A stretch of DNA of 64,000 bases from Schmidtea polychroa (taxonomy: Eukaryota). Positions 1 to 56,051 of the stretch are shown one piece after another. The stretch lies in the NCBI GenBank assembly GCA_044892525.1, contig CM097885.1, positions 2,668,001 to 2,732,000 of the forward strand. The letters run 5' to 3'. The position numbers and the translations under genes were made by a program. How positions within the stretch are numbered: the first letter of the stretch is position 1; each line of letters begins with the position of its first letter. The notes beneath the pieces are model-generated. The model was not told the origin of the DNA, made no database searches, and saw nothing but the letters and a program-made list of their open reading frames with translations.

Positions 1-868
1 TAAATTATAACTGGATGTCCTATTTCTAGCATAACTACTAACCTCATCATATTTTAAAATAGCTAAAATGCTATATAAAAAACATGAATCATCGGTGTTT
101 TTTATATTAATTAAACAATATTTATTTTTTTTAGATAAGTAGGTAGTTCAATGAAACTCCTACCACTTAATCTACTTAGCCTACTTATCTTTGTTATGGT
201 GAAGTGAATTTCTGTTATTTTTTTTATGATCCAGCTACTTCCTAACTCTGTGATATTACTTATTTTCTCGTTTAGTTCCCTAATGCCTTCGTCAAAAAAT
301 GATGCAGTTAAAGGCTTTGCATAATTTGAGATATTATTAACCTTTATTTCCCCGTCTTTTTCAAATTCGATTGTTATTCCGAATTGAATTTTGACGGAGC
401 CTAATTCGTTAATAATATCTCGTAATTTTTTTATTAGTTGTTCAGGAAATATTATTTCTTTTATATTTAAGTCGCTTGTATTTAAGCTTAATATTTGATG
501 GGTACCTCTTAGATCTTTTTGTATTATTGGAACATTTCCACCTATTTGTATTATATTTAATCCATCCCAAGAGTCAAGGGAAATATTATCTAATCCGACC
601 TGGGATTCAACAACCAATCCATCATGGGATTCGACAACCAATCCATCATTGGATTCCACAAAAGGCAATCCGACCTGGGATTCAAAAGAAGAAGTATCTA
701 ATTTAATTTTTTAATTTTTATTATTTTTTTTTCTATAGTTGAGGGTCTTTTAAAAACACTATCTTTTTTAAAATTAAACCTATCTAAATGATTTTTATGT
801 TTATTATAAAAAACGCTATATGTTACGGGGTCACTAGTCTTACATACTGGACATATTTTAAAACACAT
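1..868 (-). CDS. Inverted second copy of the 5' part of pPolB-A, cut by the window edge
   Basis: Mirror image of 3965-4832, including the same A8 frameshift run (T8 at 125-132). Confidence 0.8.
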
Positions 869-1306
869 TTTGACGCTAAAGTTGACTTATTTAACATTTT
901 CATAATAATTTAATAAAAATAATGTGATGAACCCACAAAGTAATATCATTTTTCATCAAATTGCAAAACAGTAATAACGTTTTCATAAAATTGTAACAAA
1001 GTAATAACATATTTCAGATAAATTTTCAACAGTTGTAAAATATTTAAGCAAATTGTAACAAGATTAGAAAATATTACAACAAAGTAGTAACATATTTCAG
1101 AAAATTTCAACAAATTTGTAAAATATTTATCAAATTGTAACTAAAATAATAAAAATATTGCAACAAAGTAATAAAATAATAATGGTAATTAAGACAAATC
1201 AATACATTATTTCGAAGACGGACAACAAATTAAAAAGAATATTGTAACTAAAATAATAAAAATATTGCAACAAAGTAATAAAATAATACAACATTTTAAA
1301 CTCTAG

Positions 1307-1720
1307 ATCAATCCATTTTATAGAAAATTAAATTTTATCTATATAATATATGAATAAATATCCAAGGAAATTACGTTAACGTATAATAAATACAAATTTA
1401 TCGTAAAAACATGTGTGTATTACACACAAAACAAGATACATAATTTCTAATCAATCCATTTTATAGAAAATTAAATTTTATTTATATATTATATGAATAA
1501 AATCCTAAGAAAATTACGTTAACTGTATGAAAAATACAAATTTATCATAAAAACATGTGTGTATTACACACAACATACGAGACATAATTTTTAATCAAGC
1601 TATTTTATAGAAAATTAAATTTTATCTATATAATATATGAATAAAAATCCAAGAAAATTACGTTAACCGCGCGAAAAACTACAAATTTATTGTAAAAACA
1701 TGTGTGCATTACACACAAAG
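1307..1720. repeat. Three ~143-bp tandem units, each with a TGTGTG(T/C)A-T-TACACACA palindrome (mirror copy at ~3113-3526)
   Basis: Units start near 1307, 1450 and 1594 with atcaa..attttatagaaaattaaatttta and end in aaaacatgtgtgtattacacacaa-like sequence. Confidence 0.85.
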
Positions 1721-1902
1721 CATCAAACTGAAATTGTAATTGCGCCATGTTGTAGAGAATTAAATTCTGCCTATACATTGTTACACTTAAATCTCGATCA
1801 GACATGTGAAAAGAGACATAAAAGATAAAAAACAGTAGAGTAGTATGATGTGGGCCCGCCCGGCCAGGAGCCCGCTCGGCCACATATACCCCCTCCCCCC
1901 CG

Positions 1903-2925
1903 TTTGTAAAATAATGTTAATAATAATATTTATATATCAGTATATAGATTTTGCACTGGGCTTTAAAATAAGTGTTTGATTAATAAATTCGGATGATGGA
2001 AACATTACTTTTGGGAAGAAAAAAAGTAGGTCACCGCTGGACCAATTAATTTAAAAAAATTACGTAATAGTTCTAAAAATATTAGGCATCGTTCTAAAAA
2101 TATTAGGCATTGATTACGTAATAGTTCTAAAAATATTAGGCATCGTTCTAAAAGTATGACGTAATCTTTCTAAAAATATTAGGAATCGTTCTAAAAATAT
2201 TTGGCATCGTTCTAAAATATTAGGCATCGTTCTAAAAGTATGACGTAATCATTCTAAAAATATTAGGCATCGTTCTAAAATTATGACGTAATCATTCTAA
2301 AAATATTAGGCATCATTCTAAAAGTATGATGTAATCATTCTAAAAATAATAGACATCGTTCTAAAAATATTTGGCATCATTCTAAAATATTAGACATCAT
2401 TCTAAAAATGTGATGAGTCATTGTCTTTGTTCTAAAAATGTGATGAGTCATCGTATGATAAAAATCTATATCTCATTAGAAAGTTCTTGGACTGAGCTTT
2501 AAAATAAGCTATCGATCAATATAATATGTTGGCGGGAACAATAATTTTTGGGATGAAAAAAAGTAGGTCCCCGCTGGATCACTTAATAATATTTTGAAAA
2601 ATAATAATAATTTAACGTTGAAAAGATGGTGGTCATCAATTGTTAATAACATTAAAACTATTAAAGATATATAAGATACCTATAGCTCATTCGAAAGGCC
2701 TTGGACTGAGCTTGAAGATGAGGTATCGGTTAATAAAATTTGTTGGCGGGAACATTACTTTTGGGAAGAAAAAAAGTAGGTCCCCGCTGGATCACTTAAT
2801 TTAAAAAAAATTACGTAATAGTTCTAAAAATATTAGGCATCGTTCTAAAAATATTAGGCATTGATTACGTAATAGTTCTAAAAATATTAGGCATCGTTCT
2901 AAAAAAAAAAAATAAAATTTTTTCC
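1903..2925. repeat. Non-palindromic spacer: ~20-22 bp tandem array (ttctaaaaatattaggcatcg / ttctaaaagtatgacgtaatc) plus three copies of a ~100-bp motif
   Basis: The array spans ~2060-2450 and ~2810-2900. The motif ending ttttgggaagaaaaaaagtaggtccccgctggatcacttaat recurs at ~1955-2050, ~2472-2588 and ~2686-2800. Confidence 0.85.
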
Positions 2926-2987
2926 CGGGGGGGGGGGGAGGGGGTATATGTGATCTGGAGGGGACATGGTCTGGGGAGCTCACATCC

Positions 2988-4832
2988 TACTACTCTACTG
3001 TTTTTTATCTTTTATGTCTCTTTTCACATGTCTGATCGAGATTTAAGTGTAACAATGTATAGGCAGAATTTAATTCTCTACAACATGGCGCAATTACAAT
3101 TTCAGTTTGATGCTTTGTGTGTAATGCACACATGTTTTTACAATAAATTTGTAGTTTTTCGCGCGGTTAACGTAATTTTCTTGGATTTTTATTCATATAT
3201 TATATAGATAAAATTTAATTTTCTATAAAATAGCTTGATTAAAAATTATGTCTCGTATGTTGTGTGTAATACACACATGTTTTTATGATAAATTTGTATT
3301 TTTCATACAGTTAACGTAATTTTCTTAGGATTTTATTCATATAATATATAAATAAAATTTAATTTTCTATAAAATGGATTGATTAGAAATTATGTATCTT
3401 GTTTTGTGTGTAATACACACATGTTTTTACGATAAATTTGTATTTATTATACGTTAACGTAATTTCCTTGGATATTTATTCATATATTATATAGATAAAA
3501 TTTAATTTTCTATAAAATGGATTGATCTAGAGTTTAAAATGTTGTATTATTTTATTACTTTGTTGCAATATTTTTATTATTTTAGTTACAATATTCTTTT
3601 TAATTTGTTGTCCGTCTTCGAAATAATGTATTGATTTGTCTTAATTACCATTATTATTTTATTACTTTGTTGCAATATTTTTATTATTTTAGTTACAATT
3701 TGATAAATATTTTACAAATTTGTTGAAATTTTCTGAAATATGTTACTACTTTGTTGTAATATTTTCTAATCTTGTTACAATTTGCTTAAATATTTTACAA
3801 CTGTTGAAAATTTATCTGAAATATGTTATTACTTTGTTACAATTTTATGAAAACGTTATTACTGTTTTGCAATTTGATGAAAAATGATATTACTTTGTGG
3901 GTTCATCACATTATTTTTATTAAATTATTATGAAAATGTTAAATAAGTCAACTTTAGCGTCAAAATGTGTTTTAAAATATGTCCAGTATGTAAGACTAGT
4001 GACCCCGTAACATATAGCGTTTTTTATAATAAACATAAAAATCATTTAGATAGGTTTAATTTTAAAAAAGATAGTGTTTTTAAAAGACCCTCAACTATAG
4101 AAAAAAAAATAATAAAAATTAAAAAATTAAATTAGATACTTCTTCTTTTGAATCCCAGGTCGGATTGCCTTTTGTGGAATCCAATGATGGATTGGTTGTC
4201 GAATCCCATGATGGATTGGTTGTTGAATCCCAGGTCGGATTAGATAATATTTCCCTTGACTCTTGGGATGGATTAAATATAATACAAATAGGTGGAAATG
4301 TTCCAATAATACAAAAAGATCTAAGAGGTACCCATCAAATATTAAGCTTAAATACAAGCGACTTAAATATAAAAGAAATAATATTTCCTGAACAACTAAT
4401 AAAAAAATTACGAGATATTATTAACGAATTAGGCTCCGTCAAAATTCAATTCGGAATAACAATCGAATTTGAAAAAGACGGGGAAATAAAGGTTAATAAT
4501 ATCTCAAATTATGCAAAGCCTTTAACTGCATCATTTTTTGACGAAGGCATTAGGGAACTAAACGAGAAAATAAGTAATATCACAGAGTTAGGAAGTAGCT
4601 GGATCATAAAAAAAATAACAGAAATTCACTTCACCATAACAAAGATAAGTAGGCTAAGTAGATTAAGTGGTAGGAGTTTCATTGAACTACCTACTTATCT
4701 AAAAAAAATAAATATTGTTTAATTAATATAAAAAACACCGATGATTCATGTTTTTTATATAGCATTTTAGCTATTTTAAAATATGATGAGGTTAGTAGTT
4801 ATGCTAGAAATAGGACATCCAGTTATAATTTA
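2988..4832. repeat. Right arm of the large inverted repeat (mirror of 1-1845)
   Basis: Reverse complement of 1-1845. Imperfect similarity continues inward to about 1902/2926. Confidence 0.95.
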
Positions 4833-7748
4833 TCTGAATTAATATATAATCCATTGGACTTACCCATGAAATTAAAAGATATTAGAAAATTCGAGGCCAA
4901 AAATCCAGGCTTAATAATTAACGTTTTTTCTTATGACAATAACAAACAATTAATAGATAATTACGTATTAAAACACCCACATTTAGATATTATACATCGT
5001 TCCAAAGTTTTAAATGGAACTGTAATTAATTTACTATTATTAAATAAAGGAAACAATTTCCATTACGTTGCTATAAGTAATTTAAATAAGTTAATGAATT
5101 GTCATATCAACACTAGTTGTCCTACACGCATACGTTCATTATGGTGCCATCGGTGTTTGAATGGGTTTAATAATAAACACGCACTAGAAAAACATGAAAT
5201 ATTATGTAAACGTAATCAATTAGGAACAACTCTTTACACCTTCCCTCAAAATAAATTATTACAGTTTACTGACTGGTCGAAAACAGTAACTCCTCCTTTT
5301 GTAGTTTATGCAGATTTTGAGGCTATTTTACCTTCTGATAATGATCATTTCCAACGACACATGCCAATATCTGCTGGTCTTTTACTTGTAAATAACTTTG
5401 ACGGATCTAAATCTTATCAGCAGTTCATAGGTTTAGATTGCGTCGAGAGTTTTTTAAGTGCTATAGAGGATATAGCATTAAATAAGGTTCTTCCTTTTTA
5501 TTATAAAATGGGTAGGAAACCTATGATGAAATTAACAAAAATTGAACAACGTCAATTTGTTAGTGCATCTGTTTGTTATCTTTGTATGAAATCTATCGTC
5601 GATCCTGTTAGAGATCACGATCATTTTACGGGGAAATACTTGGGTGCAGCTTGTAGCACATGTAACGTAAATAGGAAAATAAATAAAATTTTGCCTATCG
5701 TATTTCACAACTTGAAGGGATACGATATGCACCATATACTTAAATATGGATTAAATAAATTTAAAAATTGGAATTTAGGGTGCATCCCAATAACTACGGA
5801 AAAATTTATATCTTTGATTGCTCATTTAGGTAAAATTAGCCTAAGATTCATTGATTCGTATCAATTTGTCAATGATTCTTTGGCTAAAGCAGTCAAAACT
5901 TTGAATTCTTTGCCTTTTACTAATTCTGCTTTTTCTGGCACCATAGTAAGTGAAAAAGGAATCTTCCCTTATAATTTCGCCACTTCTTTAGATATTCTCC
6001 AAACTACTTATGAATTACCACCAATCTGGGAGGGTGTCACTGAGCTTGAGTATGAAAAAGCTCAGGAGATTTGGGTAGAAACTAATTGCGTAACTTTATT
6101 AGATTATATGATGATCTACCTAAAACTTGATTGTTTTCTTTTGGCTGATTTCTTTCATCAGTTTCGGTTGAAATCCATTGCTCACAATAGATTGGAACCA
6201 TTGAATTATTTCGGAATTCCAGGCATGTCTTGGTCTTCTGCATTAATGTCTTTAAATGAACCAATTGAACTCATAACTGAAAACGAAATGTTTAGCTTTT
6301 ATGAGGGTGGAATAAGAGGCGGTCTTACTTTTGTGAATAAGCATTACGTAAAAACCGACGAGAACACTGAGTTACTATATATAGATATTAATAATCTTTA
6401 TGGCTGGGCTTTAAGTCAATCATTACCTTGTGGCGAATTTTGTTGGGTTCTTGATGGATTTGATAAAATAATGGATGAATGTAGGAATTTAAATCTTGAA
6501 TCTTTGTCTTATGGATACACACTTGAAGTTGATCTTGTAATTCCTTCTGAGCTTCATGATAAGTTGGATGATTTCCCTGTAGCTGCTGAAAAAATGAAAC
6601 CTGCTGGGTCTAAGGTTGAAAAATTATTATTAACTCATCTTCCAAAATCTAATTATGTTATTCATTGGAGATTATTAAAATTATATTTGGAACTTGGTGT
6701 TAAAGTAACACGTGTAAATAGGGGTGTAAGATTTAAGCAATCACCAATTTTTAAAAAATATATAGATACAAATACCGAATTAAGATCAAAAAGCGTAAAT
6801 AGCTTAGATAAAAATTATTATAAATTGCTAAATAATAGTTTATACGGCAAAACAGTTGAAAATTTAAAGAGAAGAATGAATCTTCGTCTTTGTACAACTG
6901 CCGGTAAATTAGTTAAATATTCGTCAAAACCGACTTTTAAAAAATCTATTAAAATAGCAGATAATTTAATTGCAGCACTATTGAATTCCGATTCTATATG
7001 TTTAGATAGACCGAGTTACATTGGTCAATCTGTACTTGATCTATCTAAACTTAGAATGTATGAATTGCAATATAAGGATCTGGAATCATTTCGCAATGAG
7101 TTTAATTGTAAAATTAATATCGTTGCAGGTGATACAGATTCTTTTTTCCTCGAAGTCATTAACTGCAAACTTGAGGTTCTTTTACCTGCAATGGTTCGAG
7201 ATAATTTATTGGATACTTCCAATTACAATAGTTGTCATTCCTTATATAGTAAGAACCTTGATTCAGTCATTGGAAAGTTCAAAGACGAGAATAAAGGTCT
7301 TAAATATAAGGAGTGGGTTTTTCTTAGACCTAAATGTTATAGCTTGTTGGGTGATGAGGAAACAAAAAAGGCTAAAGGTGTAACATTGAAAGGTGGTGAC
7401 ATAAAACATCAGTCATACCTGGATTGTTATAACACTAACCAGATTTTTTCGGTTCCTCAGACTAAAATAACAAGCAAAAATCATCAAATTTTTACAATTA
7501 AAAACACAAAAATAGCACTAACTAACAAAGATGACAAAAGGGTTTGGGTGGGGCAAAATACTAGTCTTGCATATGGGCATGTAAGATTAAGTGAATTAAA
7601 TATTGGAGAAAATGTTGGAGAAATTGTTGCAGAAAATGTTTCAGAAAATGTTGGAGAAAATGATGGAGAAGATGAGGAAGAATTAAATGAAGATTTTGGA
7701 GAAGATGACATCGATATCGATGACGTTATTTTGTCCGATGAGGACTAA
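3965..7748 (+). CDS. pPolB-A: Polinton/Maverick-type protein-primed family B DNA polymerase with N-terminal zinc finger, terminal-protein/vOTU-like region and endonuclease VII-like insertion; needs two -1 frameshifts as assembled
   Basis: Exo motifs YADFE, FHNLKGYD, YLKLDCFLLAD. Pol motifs YIDINNLYG, KLLNNSLYGK, GDTDS, KCY, KAKGV. Endo VII-like CYLC..VRDHDHFTGKYLGAACSTCN. The frame upstream of 4854 reads NKYCLINIKNTDDSCFLYSILA and joins ORF 4165-4722 (GSSW...SFIELP) across A8 at 4701-4708. ATG 3965 opens MCFKICPVCK..HKNH, joined across A6 at 4121-4126 (this join is less certain). Confidence 0.92.
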
Positions 7749-7935
7749 TTTTATTGAATAAATTTTATATCTTTACATTTGTTATTTGGTAAATTTTTAT
7801 GTTTGTTATGTGTCTAGTTCATTTTTATGTGTTTAGTTAATGTTTATATGTTTTGTTATGTGTCTAGTTATTTTTATGTGTTTAGTTAATTTTTTATGTG
7901 TTGTATAGTATTTGGTTGATATATTATTAATATTA

Positions 7936-8006
<71 letters not shown>

Positions 8007-8199
8007 TCATAAAAATTTTCATTAAAAATTATCTTAAAAATTATTCTATTAAAATTTCCATTAAAAATTACCATTGAAAATTATTCATAAAAATTTCTAT
8101 TAAAAATTACTTAAAAAATAATTCATTAAAATTTCCATTAAAAAATTTCAATTCTCAAACACCTTCTATTTTTGTTAATAAATTTAAAAATCTTACTTT

Positions 8200-8812
8200 A
8201 ATTTACTTATTACATTACTTTAATTTACTTATTTAAAAATTATTACTTTAATTTACTTATTTAACTTTAATTTAAATTTTTTTTTACCATTGATTATTTA
8301 ATTTTAAAATTTGGACCTTAATTAACTTTAATTTAATTTTTAGAACCATAATTTACTTTAATTTTAAAATTTTTGACCATTATTTACTGTAATTTAAAAT
8401 ATTTGGACCATTATTTACTTTAATTTAATTTTTTAGAACCATTATTTACTTTAATTTAAAAATTTGGATCATAATTTACTTTAATTTAAATTTTTGGACT
8501 GTAATTCAAAAATTTTGACCATAATTTACTTTAATTTAATTTTTAAGAACCATAATTTACTTTAATTTAATTTTTAAGAACCATAATTTACTTTAATTTA
8601 AAAATTTGGACCATAATTTACTGTAATTTAATTTTTTTAGAACCATTATTTACTTTAATTGAAAAATCTTAGCCCATAATTTACTTATTTAGACCATAAT
8701 TTACTTTATTTCAAAAATAAATCTGAACCTTGATTTACTTAAATTTTTAGACCCATCATTTACTTTATTTTTAAATTTTAGACCCATAATTTACTTTATT
8801 TTAAAAATTTAC
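8200..8812. repeat. Degenerate ~29-30 bp tandem array (gaccataatttactttaatttaaaaattt) downstream of pPolB-A
   Basis: Many recurring accataatttacttta units are directly visible. Confidence 0.85.
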
Positions 8813-8986
8813 TATGCGTTTTATAATGTAAACCACCTTTTCTATTGAAATTCTCATGACCAAGAAGATCCCCTCACTATAGTGTGAAAAATCCATGCTT
8901 TTTTATTGAAGACTACCTTTTTCTATTGAAATTCTCAGGACCAAGGAGACCCACCCAAATAATATTTATCCTTGGCTTGTTTATTG

Positions 8987-9017
<31 letters not shown>

Positions 9018-9135
9018 TATTTAAAATCCCAGAAAACATTGGGCATTACGGCAACAATTATGTAATCAAAAAATGTCTACGGAAAAAGTTATGCAATCAA
9101 AAGTTTGCAACATTTTTTACCCCCCCCCCCCCCCC

Positions 9136-9465
9136 TATTGCTGCCGCGGGCCACTAACTACCTACTTTTCTGTGGCTGATGGTTTCTTAACTGAAATAGT
9201 TTCATTATCTTATACTTCTAAAAAGAAAAGTTTATATAGAGAAGTTTGTTTATCAATAGAATTAGGAATCTCTAAATTATTTTTATTTCAATTAAAAGCT
9301 TTGGAAGATGGAATCCTGACAGACGAAGAAATAATGAAATCAAATCAAATAATACAAGATATAAAGAATGAGGTTATAAGATTAAAAAGGGAGGGCATGG
9401 TGGCTAATGTTATAAGTAATAAAAAAACATCTCGAGAAAAATGGTTAAAGAATTCTTACTTATAA
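9136..9465 (+). pseudogene. Probable 5'-truncated small accessory protein converging on pPolB-B
   Basis: A hydrophobic stretch is followed by SKL...KALEDGILTDEEI, resembling from memory a helical ORF often seen in animal Polintons (unverified). The coding-like sequence starts abruptly after the poly-C tract at 9120-9135. Confidence 0.4.
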
Positions 9466-9559
9466 AATGGGTGTATTTTTAAAAAAGTAGATCAGGTTGC
9501 TATAGTTGCTTAAATTAATTGTCGACATTTTATTATTAAAAAATTAAATATCGTTGGTT

Positions 9560-12500
9560 TCAGTTATGGTTGAAAGCCAACCTATGAATCATTAATTTAT
9601 GATCTTTAAATTCTTTATCACTTAGACCTTTTATATATTCAGGATCAGTATTAAAATATTTAAGTTCTAAACATATAGGATTAAAAACTTGAGAATATAA
9701 AGGTTTCTCGATTTCTCTCTCGGGATAAATAATTTCAACATTATAAATATCAAGATCAGTAATCTTTGTATCATATAACTTATTCAACTTTTCTAGATTT
9801 TTTATTATAGGGATTAAATTATTTCCAATAGGTAGAGTTGTCTTTAAATCACTTAGTATGAATCTCTTATCATCATAATTTGATAATGATACTTTTTGAG
9901 ATTCTATCAAGTGAATATCATGGTTTTCACTTTTAAGTTGATGTATTTCATCAATTTTATCTTTATGATTTGGATTCAATGTATCTATATAATCTTGATG
10001 AGAAAGATTCTTTGCAACCACTCTCTGTATTCCTTTACATCTGTTATCCTTTACAGGTTTTTCTTCTTTAGGAAATATAGGATATCTATGTGTAATGGTT
10101 TCTTCTGTTTCTGGAGTTTTAAATATAAATGATCTAGTTATAAATTCAGGGTTTCTAAATGTTTCGTATGAATATTGTTTAGCACGAATAAATATTCCAT
10201 TTTCTATAGGAGTAAAAGGTTTTTCATCTTTAAACGAAAATAATTCTCCAGATGAATTTATTAAATTTGAAAGTATAGGATTTTCTTTCATATCTTTTTG
10301 TAAATCATGAGTTCTTATTGTTAAAAACATTGAATCTGTATCCATTGCATGCATTGATATATTTGCTCCGTATATAGGTTGTAAGATGTTATAATATGTT
10401 TCATACATTTGTAATTTTGAAAGTTCTAAAATTGTAAACCCTATAAATATTGGTTTGTTATATGTTTTCTCATAATTTTTTAATTCTACTGCAGTAAGAT
10501 TTTCAGAAAATACTTGTGCGTTTTTAAATGTAGGCTTTCCTAGCATGCGATTATAACGCTTAATATCTTTGGTAGTATTTGTTAGGAGTTCAATATGAGT
10601 ATATTTATCAACATTCTCCATTGTTTTCCCAAAGACTGAATTGTTTAAAATTTTATAATTATTATCTTTAAAAAGATTACCTTCTCTTTTTGCAATGTTT
10701 CGGCACCTAATGTTCTCCTCGATAAAAGCTTTCATGAATGGAGCTTGTTTAAATCTTATGACACTATGAACTTTTTTTAATATCATTCCTCGTGAAAGAT
10801 AAAATTGGAGGAGTCTATAGTGACAAAGATAAAACCTTCGATCTGTTTGATCACAAAGAAGTTTCATTGTTGGAGGTTTATCTTGTGAGATTTGCCATTC
10901 AGAAAGTTCGTTGATATCAATCTTTCTTCTTACAGGAGCTAATGGAAAATATCTTGTTCCTGATTTTATATCATCTGGATAGTCGAGGTCGCATTCTATA
11001 AAGTAACCTATTGGAGAATCTTTCGATGTTGAAAGTATTTCTTTCATAAGGTCATCTGTTGGGTTCTCTATTTCAGTGAAATCACCCATTGGTAAAAATT
11101 GAGTCATAATTCCTGAATATAAAGCTGTTGCATCTATATAAAGTATAAATATAGGATTTTTCATTGTTTCTAATAATTCTTTTAATTCCTCATTGTTAAT
11201 TTTCATATATGGATCATCAGGGTGTTTAGATAGTCTTCGGCTAGTAGTTATTGCATTTCTAGCTTTTATTTCTCTATTCCCCCTTACTGAAGAGACTCCT
11301 CCTCTAATGTTTGTTTTAATTTGGTTAAACATATCGAGGTTAGTTAAAAGATCTATAATTTATCACCTTCTTCTATATTTGAAGTCCAAATGGTATATAA
11401 CATAGTATCCCAAGCTAAAGAGGGTGCAGTTATATAATTATAAGGTTTAAGAACAAAAGATTTTGTAAATTCTTCAAAGCAATCTGCTAGAATATAAACA
11501 TCCAAGGATAAATACATACTTGTATATTCTCCTAAAGTTTTACACTTGAATAATTCCCACATTTTATTTGCTCGAGAATATTCTTGATTTGTAATATGAT
11601 TTTTTTGAAGTTGTGAATAGAAATCTTCTTGGCTAGGAAGACTTGTTTCATTATATCTTTCAAACGAGTCAACATAGTCATAAGGATATATTCCTTTTGC
11701 TAAACATGTAGGATATTCTTCTAGAGAAATATTATTTTTTTCCAAGAATTCTCGAGTGATTTTAAAATTTTCTGGTTTCATTGTTTTTGCTACTGCATCT
11801 AAAGACATTTGGAGAAAGTTTAACGAGTCTATAAATTTTAATTTTCCATATTCAATTGATTTATATTTTTCCTTTGTTAAGCCGATAACTTTGAAAGAGT
11901 TTTTAGCATTTGCTGCGAGGTGTTTAATAAATAGATGTATGTCATATCCAAAAAGATTATGAAATATAACAGGTATAAATTTAGGAGTATGGCAATTAAG
12001 ATTGCAATTTTTATGAGCTGCTCCTCGATAATTATTTTCCTTTTTTAAATGATCATGATCTATAACTTTTTCATCAGGAAGAATATTCTGTTTACACATC
12101 CAACAGTTGGAAGTATTTTCATATTCTTGTTGTTGTTGATTAGAAATATTTTGAGGATACTTTGTTTTTAATATTTTAAATATTTCATGTTCTAGATCAT
12201 TTATATTTTTAGTAAAATGATTCAAGACTTCTTCAGGGGTACCTCCTAGAATTGAATATTCTCTAGATTCTATGAGTTCAGGATAATTACTTTTAAATAA
12301 TAATTTATAAGCAGATGGTAATTGTTTAGTTTTTTTAACACTATTAGGTTTATTTCTTTTTCTTAGAAAGGCTTTCATCCTCTCTGGTTTCATCTTCTCT
12401 CCTGAGGAGTTCCATAAATCCATGAGTTTATTTTTTTCTATTATTTTTAAATATTGATAAACCAAATCTTGTTTATGGTTTATAGATTCAAAGTCACCAT

Positions 12501-13878
12501 AAAGAACTCCAACTGTTTGTAGTAAATTTGAAAAGTTTTTAAAATACATCTTGGGATTATTAGGCATTTTAATTAAAGCTGGATCATCTTTTTCACAAAA
12601 TCTTGTATGTTTAATCATAGAGTTTTTAGTTGTTGAATAATGAAGACATCTTTTACATGTTCCTCCTCCACTAGTTAGATTCTCTGGAGATGTAAAAGCT
12701 TGAAAGTTTTTTATTAAAACATAATGTTGATTATTTTCTTGTTCCAAGATTAAAAGATATATCTCGTTGTCCTGTGCTCCGTTATCCTTGGTTCCACTAT
12801 CTGAAATATAAATTGGAATAATTTCTTTCCCTATAACATGTTCATAAATATTAAGTTTAAGATTATTTAATTTTTCAAATTCTGGAATGTCTTCTAGTTT
12901 CATTGGGTGTTTGAATCCTTTGGGAAATATTAATTCATTTTCATATTGTTTGTATTTTGAAACTCTTTCGGGATTTGTTGCTTGAGGATGTAAATGTGCA
13001 AGTATTGACCAGATGAAACATTTGTTATCATTATTCTGTACATTTATAACATTTTTAGATTTAAAGGGTGTAGGAATATAAGATTTAGGATTGGGTGGTA
13101 ATCCTCTCCAATAATCAATCACTAAAGTTTGGAAAGAGTTGAATACTAAGTTTGAATCTCCTAATTCATTTTCTACTTCCTCTTGTTTTGCTTCTGCTGC
13201 TTTAATTATTTCTTTGATGGTTTTATCAAATCCTTTAATTGAAAATAAATATTTAAAAGGTATTCCAATTTCAACATCTAAGGGTGTTGTCTTTTCTTCT
13301 GCTCCTCTCCAGTATTTTGCTTTGATTATAATTTTATATTTTATAACATTATACCTTGTCGGTTTATAATTTTTTAAAGCTTCAGTGAAAGAATTTTTAA
13401 TATTTTTTTTATTTTTATTTATATATTCTCCAGGAGTTGCAGGCCCATTAATTTTTAATTGAAATTCATCTATATGATTAAAATTATCCCAGTTATATTT
13501 TTCTCTTTCAACATGATCAGGTTCTCCTTCTGAATGACATTCCTCATCGTCAGAATTTTGTTTTTTATTTTTACATTCTTTTATATGTTCTAAATAATAG
13601 AAATTTAGTTTTGTTGAAAAGTTACAATGAGGACATGTAAATATTTCTCTATTTTTCTCGATACAATTTTCAAAATGTTTATTATATCCAGAATGTAGAA
13701 ATCTTCCTTTACATTTAAGACAAAGTTTTGAATTTGTATCATTAAGATTATTTTCTTTTAATAAATGAGCTTTCGATTTTAAGTGAGAAATTAATCCAGT
13801 TTTATTTTTAAAAACTTTATTGCAAATATTACAATTCATTTTTAGAAATAAATTTTTTATTGGATACCCTGTTTTCAT
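9560..13878 (-). CDS. pPolB-B: second, divergent Polinton/Maverick-type protein-primed DNA polymerase with N-terminal zinc fingers; one -1 frameshift as assembled
   Basis: CNICNKVF..HLKSKAH finger; SYIPTP..INVQNNDNKCFIWSILA; YGDFES; CWMC..IDHDH..YRGAAHKNCN; FHNLFGYD; YLSLDVYILAD. ORF 9560-11332 then gives IRGG, YIDATALYS, KILNNSVFGK, MDTDS, KQY, CKGI. One extra base near 11359-11361 would fuse the two ORFs (…DKIIDLLTNLDMFNQ). Confidence 0.92.
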
Positions 13879-13944
13879 TTTATTTTTTAAGATTTATATT
13901 ATTCATTTTTTATAATAAAAATTTAAAAAATGACAAAAATTCAA

Positions 13945-14026
13945 ACCTTGATGGCGCAGTGGGCTAGACTGACACAGTGGTTCAAAATGCTAGCGGTTCA
14001 AATCACATCTGAGGTTAGTTTTTTTT
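13945..14026 (+). ncRNA. Putative RNA polymerase III (type 2 promoter) small RNA, tRNA-like but not a canonical cloverleaf
   Basis: A box TGGCGCAGTGG at 13952-13962, B box GGTTCAAATC at 13995-14004, T8 terminator at 14019-14026. The ends can pair (aaccttgatg / catctgaggtt). Confidence 0.5.
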
Positions 14027-14198
14027 CAACATAAAATAATATTAAAAATTTGAAAATAATATTGAAAATAGTGTGGGTATCTTATATTTATAAAGTACTT
14101 GTATATTTTATTTTATTTATTTTATTTTATTTTATTTTTTTATTAATTAATTATTTTTTAAACATAAATATGAAAAAAAAAATATTGAAACGGGTGAT

Positions 14199-14562
14199 GG
14201 TGGCGAACCGGTAATTATCGCCACCTGTCTTTCGAACACCCCCGGATCGATCCCGGTAATGTGCACATTTATTTCTCAGTTGTTTTCGGACCTCTTTCGA
14301 ATTCGCTTTCGAATTCATTTGTACTTTCGAGCAGCACACTTAAAACGCCGATGAAATCGTATTCGAGCGAGAAGCGAATAATAAGGCGTGCTGCTATTAT
14401 CGGATTGATTCTGATGTATGAGTCTGGCCAGCTTGTATATTGGAAGAGATTCGATAAACGAAAGAGGTTGATAAATAAAAAAAATGATCCGGATCAAAAA
14501 AAAACTGTTGAGGGGACAGTGAAAAAAAAAAAAAAATACCACTGTCCCCTCAGAGCAGTTTT
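14199..14562. other. Densely base-paired non-coding region upstream of pPolB-B
   Basis: Stems at 14199-206/14218-225, 14242-48/14486-92, 14290-99/14459-68 and 14330-37/14388-95, plus a perfect 13-bp stem at 14509-21/14540-52. Confidence 0.65.
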
Positions 14563-16043
14563 ACTATTTTTCATTTATTTTTTAATTTATATAATTTAAA
14601 ATCAATAACTTCCTCTAACTTTTTCATAATGCCATTTTCTTTTCTATTCTCTTTTTAGTTTGAAGCTTTTGAGTTTGAGGCTTTAAAGATTAAAACAGTT
14701 AGAGTCATTAAGGGTGGTTGTTTTCAAAATATAGGGTTAAAATACTATAAAAGTATAAGTTTTAGGTTGTTTTTCTAATAGCTTAAGTGATTTGGAGGCA
14801 TGTTTTTGTTGGGGGGCTGTTTTGGTTGGGTATATAACCACACTACTATCAACACCTAGCGGAGAATCGGTCAAACGTGAACTTTGGTTGTCATTTATTG
14901 TTGAGAGAAATATAATTTTGTGATTCAAATATATTTTGGGTATTTTATTGTTTTGATTAAAAGAACACGGGGAGTCAGAGGTTACCGACTTAAATTAACT
15001 AAAACCCAACAACTCTATATGACATGGGACTTCCGAACTCATGCCTCTGAGAGTACACATATTTCGTATTACATTAATATAAATACCGGAACATTGGCTA
15101 AACTTTATTCCGAATTCATTGCAGTAATCGAGATGGAAATCGTCACTTCTTCTTAGTGTATTTCCTCACTACTTAGTAGAGTATCTTTCTTATCATCTGC
15201 AATTGTCTTATGAGCGCAGAGTTTTCCCATAAAAAATACTAAATATGCAAAATTATTCATGAGGATACAGGAATAATAAAATAAAACAATTATTAAATGA
15301 GTAAAATGATTAAGGGAAACAAGTGTAATGCCAGACCTCCAAAAAGCAATAAGGAAAGTGAAATGGAAAAATAATAACAAAGAATCAATTAATAAAAATA
15401 ATAGTGGTTATTAATAAGTTAGTGCAAGTTGAAAATAGAAGTTTAAAAATAAAAATAAAACGCAAAAGGAATTCGCTCATCTTGACAAGTTGTTTGAGCT
15501 AATGAAATGGTATAAAACCCAAAAATTTATCGATTAACGAACAAAATTTTATCAAGTTTTATTCAATGTCCAAACCATAAAGCCAAATCAATTATTATAA
15601 TGAAAAAATCGACATATGACAAACAAAATTGTTAAAAAGGTAACGAATTGCAAATTTTTCGATTAAATTTCCAATAATTTCAATTTTATTTGAATATAAT
15701 TTAACCAATAATTAAAAGAAATACAAAAGTTTTGTTAATAAAAGATATATTCCCAATACTTCAAACTTCCCAGCAAATGACAGTTATTTTGCAACATTGT
15801 AATAGCTGTTACAAATTATTTTTACAAAAACTTTTATAATTTATTAGAAATTTCTATTTGTTTAGGTGAATGAATAAAATCATTTTTAATATGTAGCTAA
15901 ATGAATTTCAAAATTATTTATTAAATTTCTGATGTTAATTATATTTTAATTTTCTGTTTATTTTATAATAATTTACTTTTGGAATTATTGATTGAATAAA
16001 ATATTCTTTTTTCAGTAAAAATTTCTATTTTTGATATCATTAA

Positions 16044-31892
<15,849 letters not shown>

Positions 31893-32123
31893 TTGGTCGC
31901 CAACCCCCCCCCCCCCAACCCTTCCATCCATCTCATCCTCTCCAATCTACTCGGCTCTCCTTCAATTGGGGAACGATTGTAATTATTGTAACTCGAGATG
32001 TCAACTATTTCTTGTTTTGCATTTTCCTTACTTATTTACTATTATTTCTGACTCGCCGTTTTCCATGAACATCTTGAGCTGTTATTATTCAATTGATTTT
32101 CTTTTTTACTTTATTTTCTTTTA

Positions 32124-32203
<80 letters not shown>

Positions 32204-32260
32204 TATTATTATTATTTATCAATATTTATATTTATTATTTATTATTATTTCTTATTAATA

Positions 32261-32338
<78 letters not shown>

Positions 32339-32371
32339 ATTATTATTATTATTTATTAATATTTATTATTA

Positions 32372-32404
<33 letters not shown>

Positions 32405-32455
32405 TATTAATATTTATATTTATTATTATTATTTTTATTATTATTATTATTATTT

Positions 32456-32508
<53 letters not shown>

Positions 32509-32544
32509 ATTATTATTATTATTATTATTATTTATTAATATTTA

Positions 32545-32580
<36 letters not shown>

Positions 32581-32617
32581 TATTAATATTTATATTTATT
32601 ATTATTTATTATTATTA

Positions 32618-32670
<53 letters not shown>

Positions 32671-32784
32671 TGTATTATTATTAATATTATTATTAATATT
32701 ATTTATTATTATTATTTATTATTATTATTTATTATTATTATTATTATTATAATTATTAATATTATTATTATTTATTAATATTTA

Positions 32785-32832
<48 letters not shown>

Positions 32833-32888
32833 TATTAATATTTATATTTATTATTATTTCTTATTAATATTATTTCTTATTATTATTA

Positions 32889-32924
<36 letters not shown>

Positions 32925-32933
32925 TTTATTATA

Positions 32934-33008
<75 letters not shown>

Positions 33009-36399: not shown

Positions 36400-44032
<7,633 letters not shown>

Positions 44033-47394: not shown

Positions 47395-56051
<8,657 letters not shown>

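What the first reader, a model, noticed from the sequence alone, without database searches (positions are those of the whole stretch)
1..14562. Cluster of pPolB-centred units with no visible capsid, integrase or ATPase: candidate minimal protein-primed replicon family
Seen: two clearly different protein-primed PolB genes tail-to-tail, plus an inverted partial third copy, flanked mainly by tandem arrays, palindromes and structured non-coding DNA. Host genes start at 16 kb. Known: Polintons normally carry one pPolB with an RVE integrase, FtsK-like ATPase, adenain protease and jelly-roll capsids in 15-25 kb. Inference: these may be short polymerase-only, linear-plasmid-like elements that cluster or concatemerise. 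Alternatively they are the remains of two nested, truncated Polintons; the 5'-truncated ORF at 9136 fits that reading for unit B.
Basis: partly seen in the sequence, partly recalled or inferred. Interest (0 to 1): 0.85.

Follow-up and report, generated by a model that had tools for sequence, protein, structure and literature searches.

The report
Polymerase-only palindromic Maverick inside ordinary Maverick
An ordinary virus-like Maverick/Polinton transposon in an animal genome has been split by insertion of an unusual relative that consists only of two mirror-image copies of a DNA polymerase gene and exists in roughly 150 near-identical copies.

Summary
The sequence features are real, but the region is a nest of insertions, not a cluster of minimal replicons. 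Unit B (window 9167-14847) is the left 5.7 kb of an ordinary 15.1-kb Polinton/Maverick. Full copies carry pPolB, A32-type ATPase, PLA2+rve integrase and a double-jelly-roll capsid gene, with 945-bp TIRs and a 6-bp TSD. There are at least 777 exact termini in the genome. The rest of this copy, including capsid, integrase and ATPase, lies left of the window.

Unit A (window -4325 to 9166, 13,492 bp) is inserted into B with a 6-bp TSD. It is a near-perfect palindrome: two 6.2-kb arms around a 1-kb spacer. Each arm carries one outward-facing pPolB gene plus tandem arrays. No other Polinton gene is detectable. A is a real family, with 313 exact termini, mostly paired 12.8-15.4 kb apart. TSDs were found in 3 of 3 elements checked, and the polymerase coding sequence is almost identical between copies.

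I read A as a non-autonomous, polymerase-only Polinton derivative integrated in trans. It possibly arose by snap-back duplication of one Polinton end. No evidence bears on plasmid-like, extrachromosomal life. Concatemer-like end fusion was seen at only two loci. Verdict: new variant of a known kind, moderate interest.

The parts
1..1901 (-). Inner 1.9 kb of the LEFT arm of element A. The arm continues to 4,325 bases left of the window. This part holds tandem arrays and the N-terminal pieces of the mirror polymerase gene (about 862-138).
   Evidence: Inverted repeat 1-1901 / 2932-4832, 99%. The full arm is -4325..1901. P0001 residues 14-253 map to 862-138. The mirror PolB lies at C1:2665088-2667979.
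1902..2931 (.). Asymmetric 1,030-bp central spacer of element A. It is built of 21/43/84-nt direct tandem repeats.
   Evidence: The arm boundary is blurred: all 14 arm-to-arm substitutions lie in 2953-2987.
2932..9166 (+). RIGHT arm of element A (6,235 bp).
   Evidence: Arms are 6,227 and 6,235 nt. There are 0 substitutions from 2988 to 9166 and only two length differences, in a (TAT)n run and in the terminal poly-C run.
3971..7748 (+). PolB A gene. In this copy it is broken into three frames by two 2-nt insertions relative to other copies, at 4101-4102 and 4701-4702. The C-terminal 964-aa ORF (4854-7748) holds the exonuclease and polymerase domains, a C2H2-type module and an HNH/Endonuclease-VII-like Cys/His module.
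   Evidence: Pfam. Mapping of homologues onto three frames. Other copies have uninterrupted frames of 1,207 or 1,301 aa. This protein keeps all columns that are invariant across 20 homologues.
7749..9166 (+). Subterminal non-coding region and right terminus of A. It contains (TAT)n, 13/39-nt and 31/61-nt arrays, and two 81-nt-spaced repeats. It ends ...CCTACT.
9167..9172 (.). Right copy of the 6-bp target-site duplication TTTCTG made by A's insertion. The left copy is at window -4331..-4326.
   Evidence: B positions 5697-5702 are present on both sides of A.
9167..14847 (-). Left 5.7 kb of Polinton B (B positions 5702 to 1). It ends at the terminus 5'-AGTAGTGTGG...
   Evidence: 98.98% identical to the full C4 copy. 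The terminus is sharp in 13 of 13 copies compared.
9560..13878 (-). PolB B gene. Intact copies have a 1,439-1,449-aa frame with an N-terminal C2H2 zinc finger. Here it is broken by a 1-nt deletion near 11362.
13904..14847 (-). Left TIR of Polinton B (about 945 bp).
   Evidence: TIR of 944/949 nt at 96% in the C4 copy, and window 13924-14847 matches B 14177-15125.
9073..9465 (+). Chimeric ORF, not a gene. It joins the last 94 nt of A to the C-terminal part of B's 203-aa ORF, which A split.
   Evidence: ORF list. B ORF at element positions 5404-6015. Junction at 9166/9167.

Best explanation
The region is a nest of virus-like Polinton/Maverick transposons in an animal chromosome.

SHOWN
- Unit B is a dead copy of an ordinary, abundant 15.1-kb Polinton.
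- It spans C1:2647368-2682847, which is window -20632 to 14847.
- It has been hit by at least two later insertions: a 4.7-kb LTR retrotransposon left of the window, and element A.
- Element A is a 13.5-kb palindrome with two identical 6.2-kb arms around a 1-kb spacer.
- Each arm reads, from the outside in: a Polinton-type terminus (5'-AGTAGG...), 1.4 kb of tandem arrays, an outward-facing pPolB gene, then more arrays.
- A carries no integrase, ATPase, protease or capsid gene.
- A has Polinton-style ends and 6-bp target-site duplications, and exists as roughly 150 near-identical copies.

INFERRED
- A is a non-autonomous Polinton derivative. A Polinton rve integrase supplied in trans inserts it. 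Family B, or an unidentified family with matching ends, could be the source, and possibly packages A as well.
- A keeps its own protein-primed polymerase to copy itself from its own termini.
- The palindrome is most simply explained by a snap-back (strand-switch) event while one polymerase-bearing end of a Polinton was being replicated. That event gives a one-ended fragment two identical, integrase-competent ends, and brings it to about the length of a full Polinton genome.
For: Unit B
- A full copy at C4:7557452-7572576 is 15,125 bp, with a TIR of about 945 bp.
- Its genes are a 1,439-aa pPolB, Pox_A32 ATPase (E=1e-8), PLA2_4+rve integrase (E=3e-11) and a DJR capsid protein (E=2e-26).
- Its TSD is AAAAAC.
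- The genome holds 401+376 exact 34-nt termini, against 0 for the reversed control pattern.

Nesting
- Window 9167-14847 equals B 5702-1. Window -6706..-4326 equals B 8077-5697. Positions 5697-5702 are therefore duplicated on both sides of A, as TTTCTG.

Unit A, structure
- The arms show 0 substitutions over 6.18 kb.
- tblastn with all ORFs of B and of three IMG/VR Polintons against the whole of A hits only the two polymerase genes.
- Pfam finds nothing else.

Unit A, family
- There are 156+157 exact 35-nt termini, against 0 for the control, and 472 within 3 mismatches.
- Of the first 100 listed (all on C1), 90 form 45 +/- pairs. 42 pairs are 12,817-15,446 bp apart; the others are 6.9, 9.0 and 27.8 kb. 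10 termini are solo.
- Of 47 scored PolB A matches, 32 form 16 divergent pairs, 4 form 2 convergent pairs and 11 are single.
- Perfect 6-bp TSDs were found in 3 of 3 elements with both ends in hand: TTTCTG, TACATA, CATCAT.
- Between copies the 2,892-nt coding stretch differs at 0-4 nt. In the 5 comparisons against the window copy that were scored by codon, all differences (0-2 codons) were synonymous.
- A lineage with both frameshifts sits at two unlinked loci, the window and C2:181.19 Mb.

Polymerase
- It keeps every column that is invariant in 20 homologues.
- Relatives at 31-34% identity sit in ordinary Polinton-type IMG/VR contigs in 3 of 3 examined. All three have a DJR capsid, A32 ATPase and a PLA2 domain; rve was found in 2 of 3.
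Against: - No helper has been tied to A. A's and B's ends share only the first 5 nt (AGTAG) plus a G/C homopolymer about 30 nt in.
- I could not read the surroundings of the closest other polymerase family (C, 62% identical to A's, 4 loci).
- Snap-back origin is an inference from the shape alone. Stepwise TIR expansion would give the same structure.
- Two A subfamilies differ sharply in the inner arrays and by 2.6% in the polymerase N-terminal region, yet are nearly identical nearer the ends. A single snap-back event does not explain that mosaic.
- The near-identical coding sequence may reflect youth rather than selection. The counts (0-2 synonymous, 0 non-synonymous codons per comparison) are too small to test.
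- Nothing here shows that the polymerase is expressed or used.
Confidence: 0.72

Rival explanations
1. First reader's main reading. A and B are short polymerase-only, linear-plasmid-like protein-primed replicons that live extrachromosomally and cluster or concatemerise in the chromosome.
For: - A encodes only a pPolB between long inverted repeats, as invertron plasmids do.
- One kind of direct end-to-end fusion of two A termini exists, with a few bases lost at the joint.
Against: - B is an ordinary Polinton.
- A copies are dispersed single insertions with 6-bp TSDs in 3 of 3 cases, and with paired termini.
- Fused termini occur at only 2 loci with the same junction sequence, one on a small unplaced contig, out of 313 or more termini.
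- Pfam found no T7-like RNA polymerase or other plasmid gene in the 8 ORFs scanned.
- No data on free ends could be obtained, because only contigs could be laid.
Confidence: 0.1
2. Pure debris. Both units are just decayed remains of nested, truncated Polintons, and A has no life of its own.
For: - B here is indeed dead. It carries a frameshift, is split by A and by an LTR element, and is internally rearranged.
- The window's A copy carries two frameshifts.
Against: - The same palindromic architecture recurs in 42 of 45 terminus pairs on C1 at 12.8-15.4 kb, with different flanks and TSDs.
- Polymerase coding sequence is near-identical between copies, and many copies have uninterrupted 1,207-1,309-aa frames.
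- Random decay does not reproduce one architecture about 150 times.
Confidence: 0.08
3. A is autonomous. Its polymerase's HNH/Endonuclease-VII-like module, or its N-terminal domain, carries out integration, so no integrase is needed.
For: - A weak Endonuclease_7 match (E about 2e-3) lies at residues 237-272, with invariant Cys/His/Asp columns across homologues.
- No helper has been identified.
Against: - The same module is aligned in B's polymerase and scores as Endonuclease_7 in 1 of the 3 IMG/VR Polinton polymerases scanned. All of these elements also carry an rve/PLA2 integrase region, so it is a clade feature, not a replacement.
- A's TSD length (6 bp) and AG...CT ends equal B's, which is the signature of the rve integrase.
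Confidence: 0.06
4. Assembly artefact. The palindrome is a chimeric fold-back produced by long-read assembly.
For: Perfect multi-kb palindromes are a known artefact class (recalled, not tested).
Against: - About 150 loci share the structure and have unique flanks with matching TSDs.
- The spacer is asymmetric.
- Independent runs of two species labels hold 76-93% of the sampled words of the 4000-9400 stretch.
Confidence: 0.02

Closest known systems
Polinton/Maverick self-synthesising transposons (polintoviruses)
   Same: - B matches on all main counts: pPolB, rve integrase, A32-type ATPase, DJR capsid, TIRs, 5'-AG...CT-3' ends, 6-bp TSD and 15 kb length.
- A shares the polymerase clade, the end dinucleotides, the TSD length and the overall size.
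   Different: - A lacks the integrase that defines the family. [quoted passage not shown]
- A also lacks the whole capsid module.
- Its TIRs are 6.2 kb, against the 100-1,500 bp quoted for Polintons (PMC10748475, introduction passage read).
- It carries the polymerase gene twice.
Non-autonomous derivatives of DNA transposons (internally deleted, mobilised in trans). Tlr1 has sometimes been viewed as a 'non-autonomous polinton' (PMC5499653, passage read).
   Same: - It keeps the ends, lacks the integrating enzyme and has a high copy number.
   Different: - Typical non-autonomous elements lose all genes. A keeps, and duplicates, an apparently intact replicase, and is not shortened: 13-15 kb against 15.1 kb for B.
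Snap-back / copy-back defective genomes of linear DNA viruses. Example: AAV 'snapback' genomes (PMC8235507, abstract seen in a search listing only). Adenovirus and phi29 examples are recalled, not checked.
   Same: - One genome end is duplicated in inverted orientation around a short unique turn-around. This gives two identical functional ends, and helper functions are needed.
   Different: - Those are transient by-products in infected cells. A is a germline-resident, integrated family with TSDs. The resemblance is in shape only and was not tested.
Linear protein-primed plasmids (invertrons) of fungi and plants
   Same: - TIRs plus a pPolB of the same Pfam family, PF03175.
   Different: - No RNA polymerase gene was found. 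A is integrated in nuclear chromosomes with TSDs. The ends and TSD are Polinton-like. Extrachromosomal existence is untested.

Membership tests
Polinton/Maverick | [quoted passage not shown] | tested here: met
   - A: PF03175, E=4e-31.
- B: E=1e-11 in the full copy.
- Both keep the columns that are invariant in 20 homologues.
Polinton/Maverick | Retrovirus-like (rve) integrase encoded by the element | tested here: not met
   - For A: no match by Pfam on the ORFs, and none by tblastn with B and IMG/VR Polinton proteins over the whole 13.5 kb.
- For B the feature IS met in the full copy: rve E=3e-11 plus a PLA2_4 domain.
- I therefore file B as a member and A only as a derivative.
Polinton/Maverick | TIRs ending 5'-AG...CT-3' and a 6-bp (5-8 bp) target-site duplication | tested here: met
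   - A: AGTAGG...CCTACT, with TSDs in 3 of 3 elements.
- B: AGTAGT...ACTACT, with a TSD in the 1 copy checked.
Polinton/Maverick | Capsid module: DJR major capsid protein and A32-type packaging ATPase | tested here: not met
   - A: none.
- B: met, with DJR-like_dom E=2e-26 and Pox_A32 E=1e-8.
Polinton/Maverick | Adenain-like protease and minor (penton) capsid protein | tested here: inconclusive
   - B: six unassigned ORFs gave no Pfam match better than E=0.06 (Peptidase_C39, 153-aa ORF).
- A: absent.
Polinton/Maverick | Size 13-25 kb with TIRs of 100-1,500 bp (PMC10748475) | tested here: not met
   - A: the size fits (12.8-15.4 kb in 42 of 45 pairs), but the TIRs are 6.2 kb.
- B: 15,125 bp with a 945-bp TIR, so met.
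Linear protein-primed plasmids (invertrons) | Extrachromosomal linear DNA with protein-capped 5' ends | not testable with these tools
   Only assembled contigs of public runs could be laid. No molecule ends are visible.
Linear protein-primed plasmids (invertrons) | Companion genes, typically a phage-type RNA polymerase (the feature is recalled) | tested here: not met
   No Pfam match other than the polymerase in A's ORFs.
Snap-back defective genomes (works-like comparison only) | Inverted duplication of one genome end around a short unique turn-around | tested here: met
   Arms of 6.2 kb with 0 substitutions outside the boundary, and a 1,030-bp asymmetric spacer.
Snap-back defective genomes (works-like comparison only) | Dependence on a helper genome for the missing functions | not testable with these tools
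   No helper was identified. The surroundings of family C could not be read.

The most novel reading that the evidence does not exclude
Element A is a heritable 'satellite' of Polintons in an animal germline. It would be a snap-back, genome-length derivative that keeps only its own protein-primed replicase and origin-bearing ends, and borrows integrase and capsid from a full Polinton. In effect it would be a hyperparasite of an endogenous virus. Retention of two intact polymerase genes would then mean that Polinton replication is cis- or origin-specific. That would give the first natural system in which the never-demonstrated protein-primed 'self-synthesis' step can be separated from integration and packaging.
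Probability: 0.35. Interest if true: 0.75.

Novelty: new variant of a known kind. Interest (0 to 1): 0.5.

Why it matters
How Polintons/Mavericks replicate and move has been inferred almost entirely in silico. A family that has shed every gene except the polymerase still inserts with the Polinton signature and has reached about 150 near-identical copies. That argues that the integrase (and perhaps the capsid) can act in trans, while the polymerase is worth keeping in cis. This separates the functions in a way that can be tested. The family also extends known Polinton architecture (6.2-kb TIRs, a duplicated polymerase). And it is a caution for annotation pipelines that require five core genes, because they would miss such elements. 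Unit B itself is ordinary.

Tried and rejected
1. Mitochondrial or ciliate reading. The window has no tRNA or rRNA, and tables 4 and 6 do not improve the frames. Rejected: it is a nuclear animal chromosome, shown by an R7-type RGS architecture at 54.6 kb.

2. B as a 5.7-kb polymerase-only element. The sharp 1468-7148 boundary looked like this. It is an artefact of the query being interrupted, because all 12 other copies run on past that point.

3. Public runs. All 24 runs are kept as contigs, and no RNA holder is listed. Laying 4 runs gave no usable depth, molecule ends or strand. Pieces of the polymerase in runs guessed to be RNA are not evidence of expression.

4. Search for relatives.
   - Metagenome contigs gave 1 weak locus.
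   - Viral contigs gave 19 loci at 29-37% identity. I examined 3 of them.

5. Search for A's autonomous relative or helper.
   - A third polymerase family (C) turned up at 4 single loci. It is 62% identical to A's polymerase.
   - A Pfam DJR search of the genome scored 126 of 2,527 candidates. None lies near the four C loci, which is inconclusive.
   - One 1.2-kb sample upstream of a C copy has no ORF above 75 aa and no similarity to A or B.
   - Larger stretches could not be had, so C's make-up is open.

6. Earlier findings of this scan: nothing on record.

7. Literature. Four searches and passages of five papers turned up no description of a polymerase-only or palindromic Polinton. Subscription journals, Repbase and Dfam entries, and supplements were not seen.

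Full report
**What the window is**

The window is G000:C1:2668001-2732000 of a 781-Mb assembly dominated by four chromosome-scale contigs. It is AT-rich with patchy GC. It has no tRNA or Rfam hit, and mitochondrial or ciliate codes do not improve the frames. Downstream ORFs include an R7-type RGS architecture (DHEX + GGL + RGS), GDA1/CD39 exons and a Tc1-like DDE_3 transposase. The host is therefore an animal. I treated the elements as animal proviruses and only observed them.

**Checking the observation**

- PolB A is at 4854-7748 (+), 964 aa, DNA_pol_B_2 E=4e-31.
- PolB B is at 13878-9560 (-), split into 841-aa and 590-aa ORFs.
- The two are convergent and only 28% identical, but homologous over nearly the whole of A.
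- Window 1-1901 is a 99% inverted copy of 2932-4832.
- Tandem arrays are abundant.
- No capsid, integrase or ATPase is detectable within 1-14562.

The raw observation therefore stands. Its boundaries and the 'third copy' need correcting, as set out below.

**Unit B is an ordinary Polinton/Maverick**

- A DNA search with 7700-17500 suggested a sharp 5.7-kb unit at window 9167-14847.
- Comparing 12 other copies showed that only the 14847 end is a true terminus (5'-AGTAGTGTGG..., with unrelated flanks). At the 9167 end all 12 others run on with the same sequence.
- Extending one copy gave a 15,125-bp element at C4:7557452-7572576 with TIRs of about 945 bp at 96%.
- Its TSD is AAAAAC.
- Its genes are:
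  - a 1,439-aa pPolB with an N-terminal C2H2 finger;
  - a Pox_A32-type ATPase;
  - an integrase with a parvovirus-type PLA2 domain plus an rve core;
  - a double-jelly-roll capsid protein.
- Six further ORFs stay unassigned.
- The exact 34-nt terminus occurs 401+376 times, against 0 for the control.
- Most scored polymerase copies have open frames of 1,444-1,449 aa at 98-100% identity.
- The window's copy has a 1-nt deletion near 11362 that splits the frame.

**A is inserted into B**

- To the right of A, window 9167-14847 equals B positions 5702 to 1 (98.98%).
- To the left of A, window -6706..-4326 equals B 8077 to 5697 (98.95%).
- B positions 5697-5702 therefore occur on both sides of A, as TTTCTG. 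This is a 6-bp target-site duplication.
- B's other terminus is at C1:2647368, which is window -20632.
- Window -19999..-15447 matches B 14492-9924. By the coordinates this stretch holds the capsid gene, the integrase gene and most of the ATPase gene.
- Between lie two further features:
  - a 4.7-kb LTR retrotransposon with identical 152-nt LTRs and protease, RT, RNase H and integrase domains;
  - about 2 kb of rearranged B pieces.
- This B copy is dead several times over, and the 'missing' capsid/integrase module lies left of the window.

**Anatomy of A**

- A runs from window -4325 to 9166, which is 13,492 bp. The terminus coordinates confirm this.
- The arms are 6,227 and 6,235 nt.
- All 14 substitutions between the arms lie in 2953-2987, at the arm/spacer boundary.
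- From 2988 to the terminus there are none. The only differences are one 3-nt unit in a (TAT)n run and 5 nt in the terminal poly-C run.
- The 1,030-bp spacer (1902-2931) is an asymmetric array of 21/43-nt repeats.
- From the outside in, each arm has:
  - the terminus 5'-AGTAGG(T/G)AGTTAGTGG... followed by a G run;
  - 1.4 kb of arrays;
  - the polymerase gene, pointing outward;
  - further arrays.
- Mapping the closest public homologues (62% identity, typically about 1,240 aa) shows that the gene really starts near 3971. In this copy it runs through three frames.
- Alignment with nine other arms shows two 2-nt insertions, at 4101-4102 and 4701-4702. They are present in both arms here and in one arm of an element on C2.
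- Other copies have uninterrupted frames of 1,207 or 1,301 aa.
- tblastn with every ORF of B and of three IMG/VR Polintons against all of A hits nothing but the two polymerase genes.

**A is a family, not an accident**

- The exact 35-nt terminus occurs 156+157 times, against 0 for the control. Within 3 mismatches of a 32-nt version the count is 472.
- Of the first 100 places listed (all on C1), 90 form 45 +/- pairs. 42 pairs are 12,817-15,446 bp apart, three are 6.9, 9.0 and 27.8 kb apart, and 10 termini are solo.
- Of 47 scored polymerase matches (all about 100% identical over 964 aa), 32 form 16 divergent pairs, 4 form two convergent pairs and 11 are single.
- All three elements for which I held both ends have perfect 6-bp TSDs in unrelated flanks: TTTCTG, TACATA and CATCAT.
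- Within each of these three elements the arms show 0 substitutions over about 5.8 kb.
- Between elements the 2,892-nt coding stretch differs at 0-4 nt. In the 5 comparisons against the window copy scored by codon, all differences were synonymous (0-2 codons, too few to test selection).
- Two subfamilies differ by 2.6% in the N-terminal coding part and are barely alignable in the inner arrays.
- The two convergent pairs are direct fusions of two termini with a few bases lost at the joint. A pattern for such fusions finds only these two loci, which share one junction sequence, one of them on a small contig.
- End-to-end joining therefore exists but is rare.

**How it most likely works**

*Shown:* A has Polinton-type ends and TSDs, lacks every gene except the polymerase, and is young and multi-copy.

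*Inferred:*
- (i) Integration is done in trans by a Polinton rve integrase. The 6-bp TSD and AG...CT ends equal B's.
- (ii) A keeps its own protein-primed polymerase because replication starts at its own ends. These differ from B's after the first five bases.
- (iii) The palindrome arose by strand-switching (snap-back) while a polymerase-bearing Polinton end was copied. That event would give a one-ended fragment two valid ends, and would bring it to about the length of a full Polinton (13-15 kb against 15.1 kb). The length match would also suit packaging by a helper.

Step (iii) rests on shape alone. The mosaic divergence between subfamilies is not explained by it.

*Motifs:* the polymerase keeps all columns invariant in 20 homologues. 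These include residues I recognise, from recall, as the Exo I-III and Pol A-C motifs. It also keeps an HNH/Endonuclease-VII-like Cys/His module.

*Why the module is not an integrase substitute:* the same module is aligned in B's polymerase and scores as Endonuclease_7 in 1 of 3 IMG/VR Polinton polymerases. All of those elements also carry an rve/PLA2 integrase region. I therefore do not take the module for an integrase substitute.

**Open point: the helper**

- A third polymerase family (C) occurs at four single loci and is 62% identical to A's polymerase.
- I could not read its surroundings.
- A genome-wide DJR search was uninformative for these loci.
- A 1.2-kb sample upstream of one copy is non-coding.
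- Relatives of A's polymerase at 31-34% identity sit in ordinary Polinton-type contigs in 3 of 3 examined, out of 19 found.

**Comparison with what is known**

- B meets the Polinton definition.
- A fails it on the integrase ('by definition', PMC5499653) and on the capsid module. Its TIRs are about four times the upper bound quoted in PMC10748475.
- A works like a non-autonomous transposon that has kept its replicase, and looks like a snap-back defective genome.
- Four full-text searches found no description of such an element. Repbase and Dfam entries and supplements were not seen.

**Verdict**

- A is a genuine, unusual polymerase-only Polinton derivative.
- Extrachromosomal life and expression remain untested, because only contigs could be laid.

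Noticed in passing
L031:4553-9253 (window -15447..-10747, left of the window): A 4.7-kb LTR retrotransposon with identical 152-nt LTRs and ORFs carrying aspartyl protease, RT, RNase H and an integrase (H2C2 + rve). It is inserted in the ATPase region of the same Polinton B copy.
   Followed up: partly
G000 C1:15399707-15403087 (L068), C1:26989148, C2:50152403, C3:119145586: A third pPolB family ('C') with open frames of 1,157-1,408 aa. It is 62% identical to A's polymerase and present as single, unpaired genes.
   Followed up: partly
L047 (C3:88713650-88714050) and C36:38989-39027: Two A termini are fused tail-to-tail with a few bases lost at the joint. The junction sequence is identical at both loci, so this may be one locus assembled twice. 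These are the only such fusions found in the genome.
   Followed up: yes
L045:4975-6381 (family B integrase); also L049, L050, L052: The Polinton integrase region carries a parvovirus-type phospholipase A2 domain (PF08398). In the IMG/VR relatives it also carries DUF5679, as a fused or adjacent ORF.
   Followed up: no
window 4854-7748, residues about 237-272 of the 964-aa ORF: An HNH/Endonuclease-VII-like Cys/His module with invariant columns sits between the first and second exonuclease motifs of this polymerase clade. A further C2H2-type module lies at residues 98-118.
   Followed up: partly
runs X1-X4: A run under a second species label holds 80% of the sampled words of A's arm. The family is therefore shared, at near-identity, by two labelled organisms.
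   Followed up: no
window 40611-41657 (+) and 20477-21136 (+): Other mobile-element ORFs in the window: a Tc1/mariner-like DDE_3 transposase and a GIY-YIG endonuclease-like ORF.
   Followed up: no
window 50978-51661 (+): One open frame joins an EAP30/Vps36-like segment (residues 1-108) to a proteasome-subunit segment (109-201). It may be two abutting exons or a chimeric or retro-copied gene.
   Followed up: no
window 32001-33000 and 22001-23000, 37001-38000, 39001-40000: Kilobase stretches with extremely low GC (0.04-0.12) lie between GC-richer exonic blocks.
   Followed up: no
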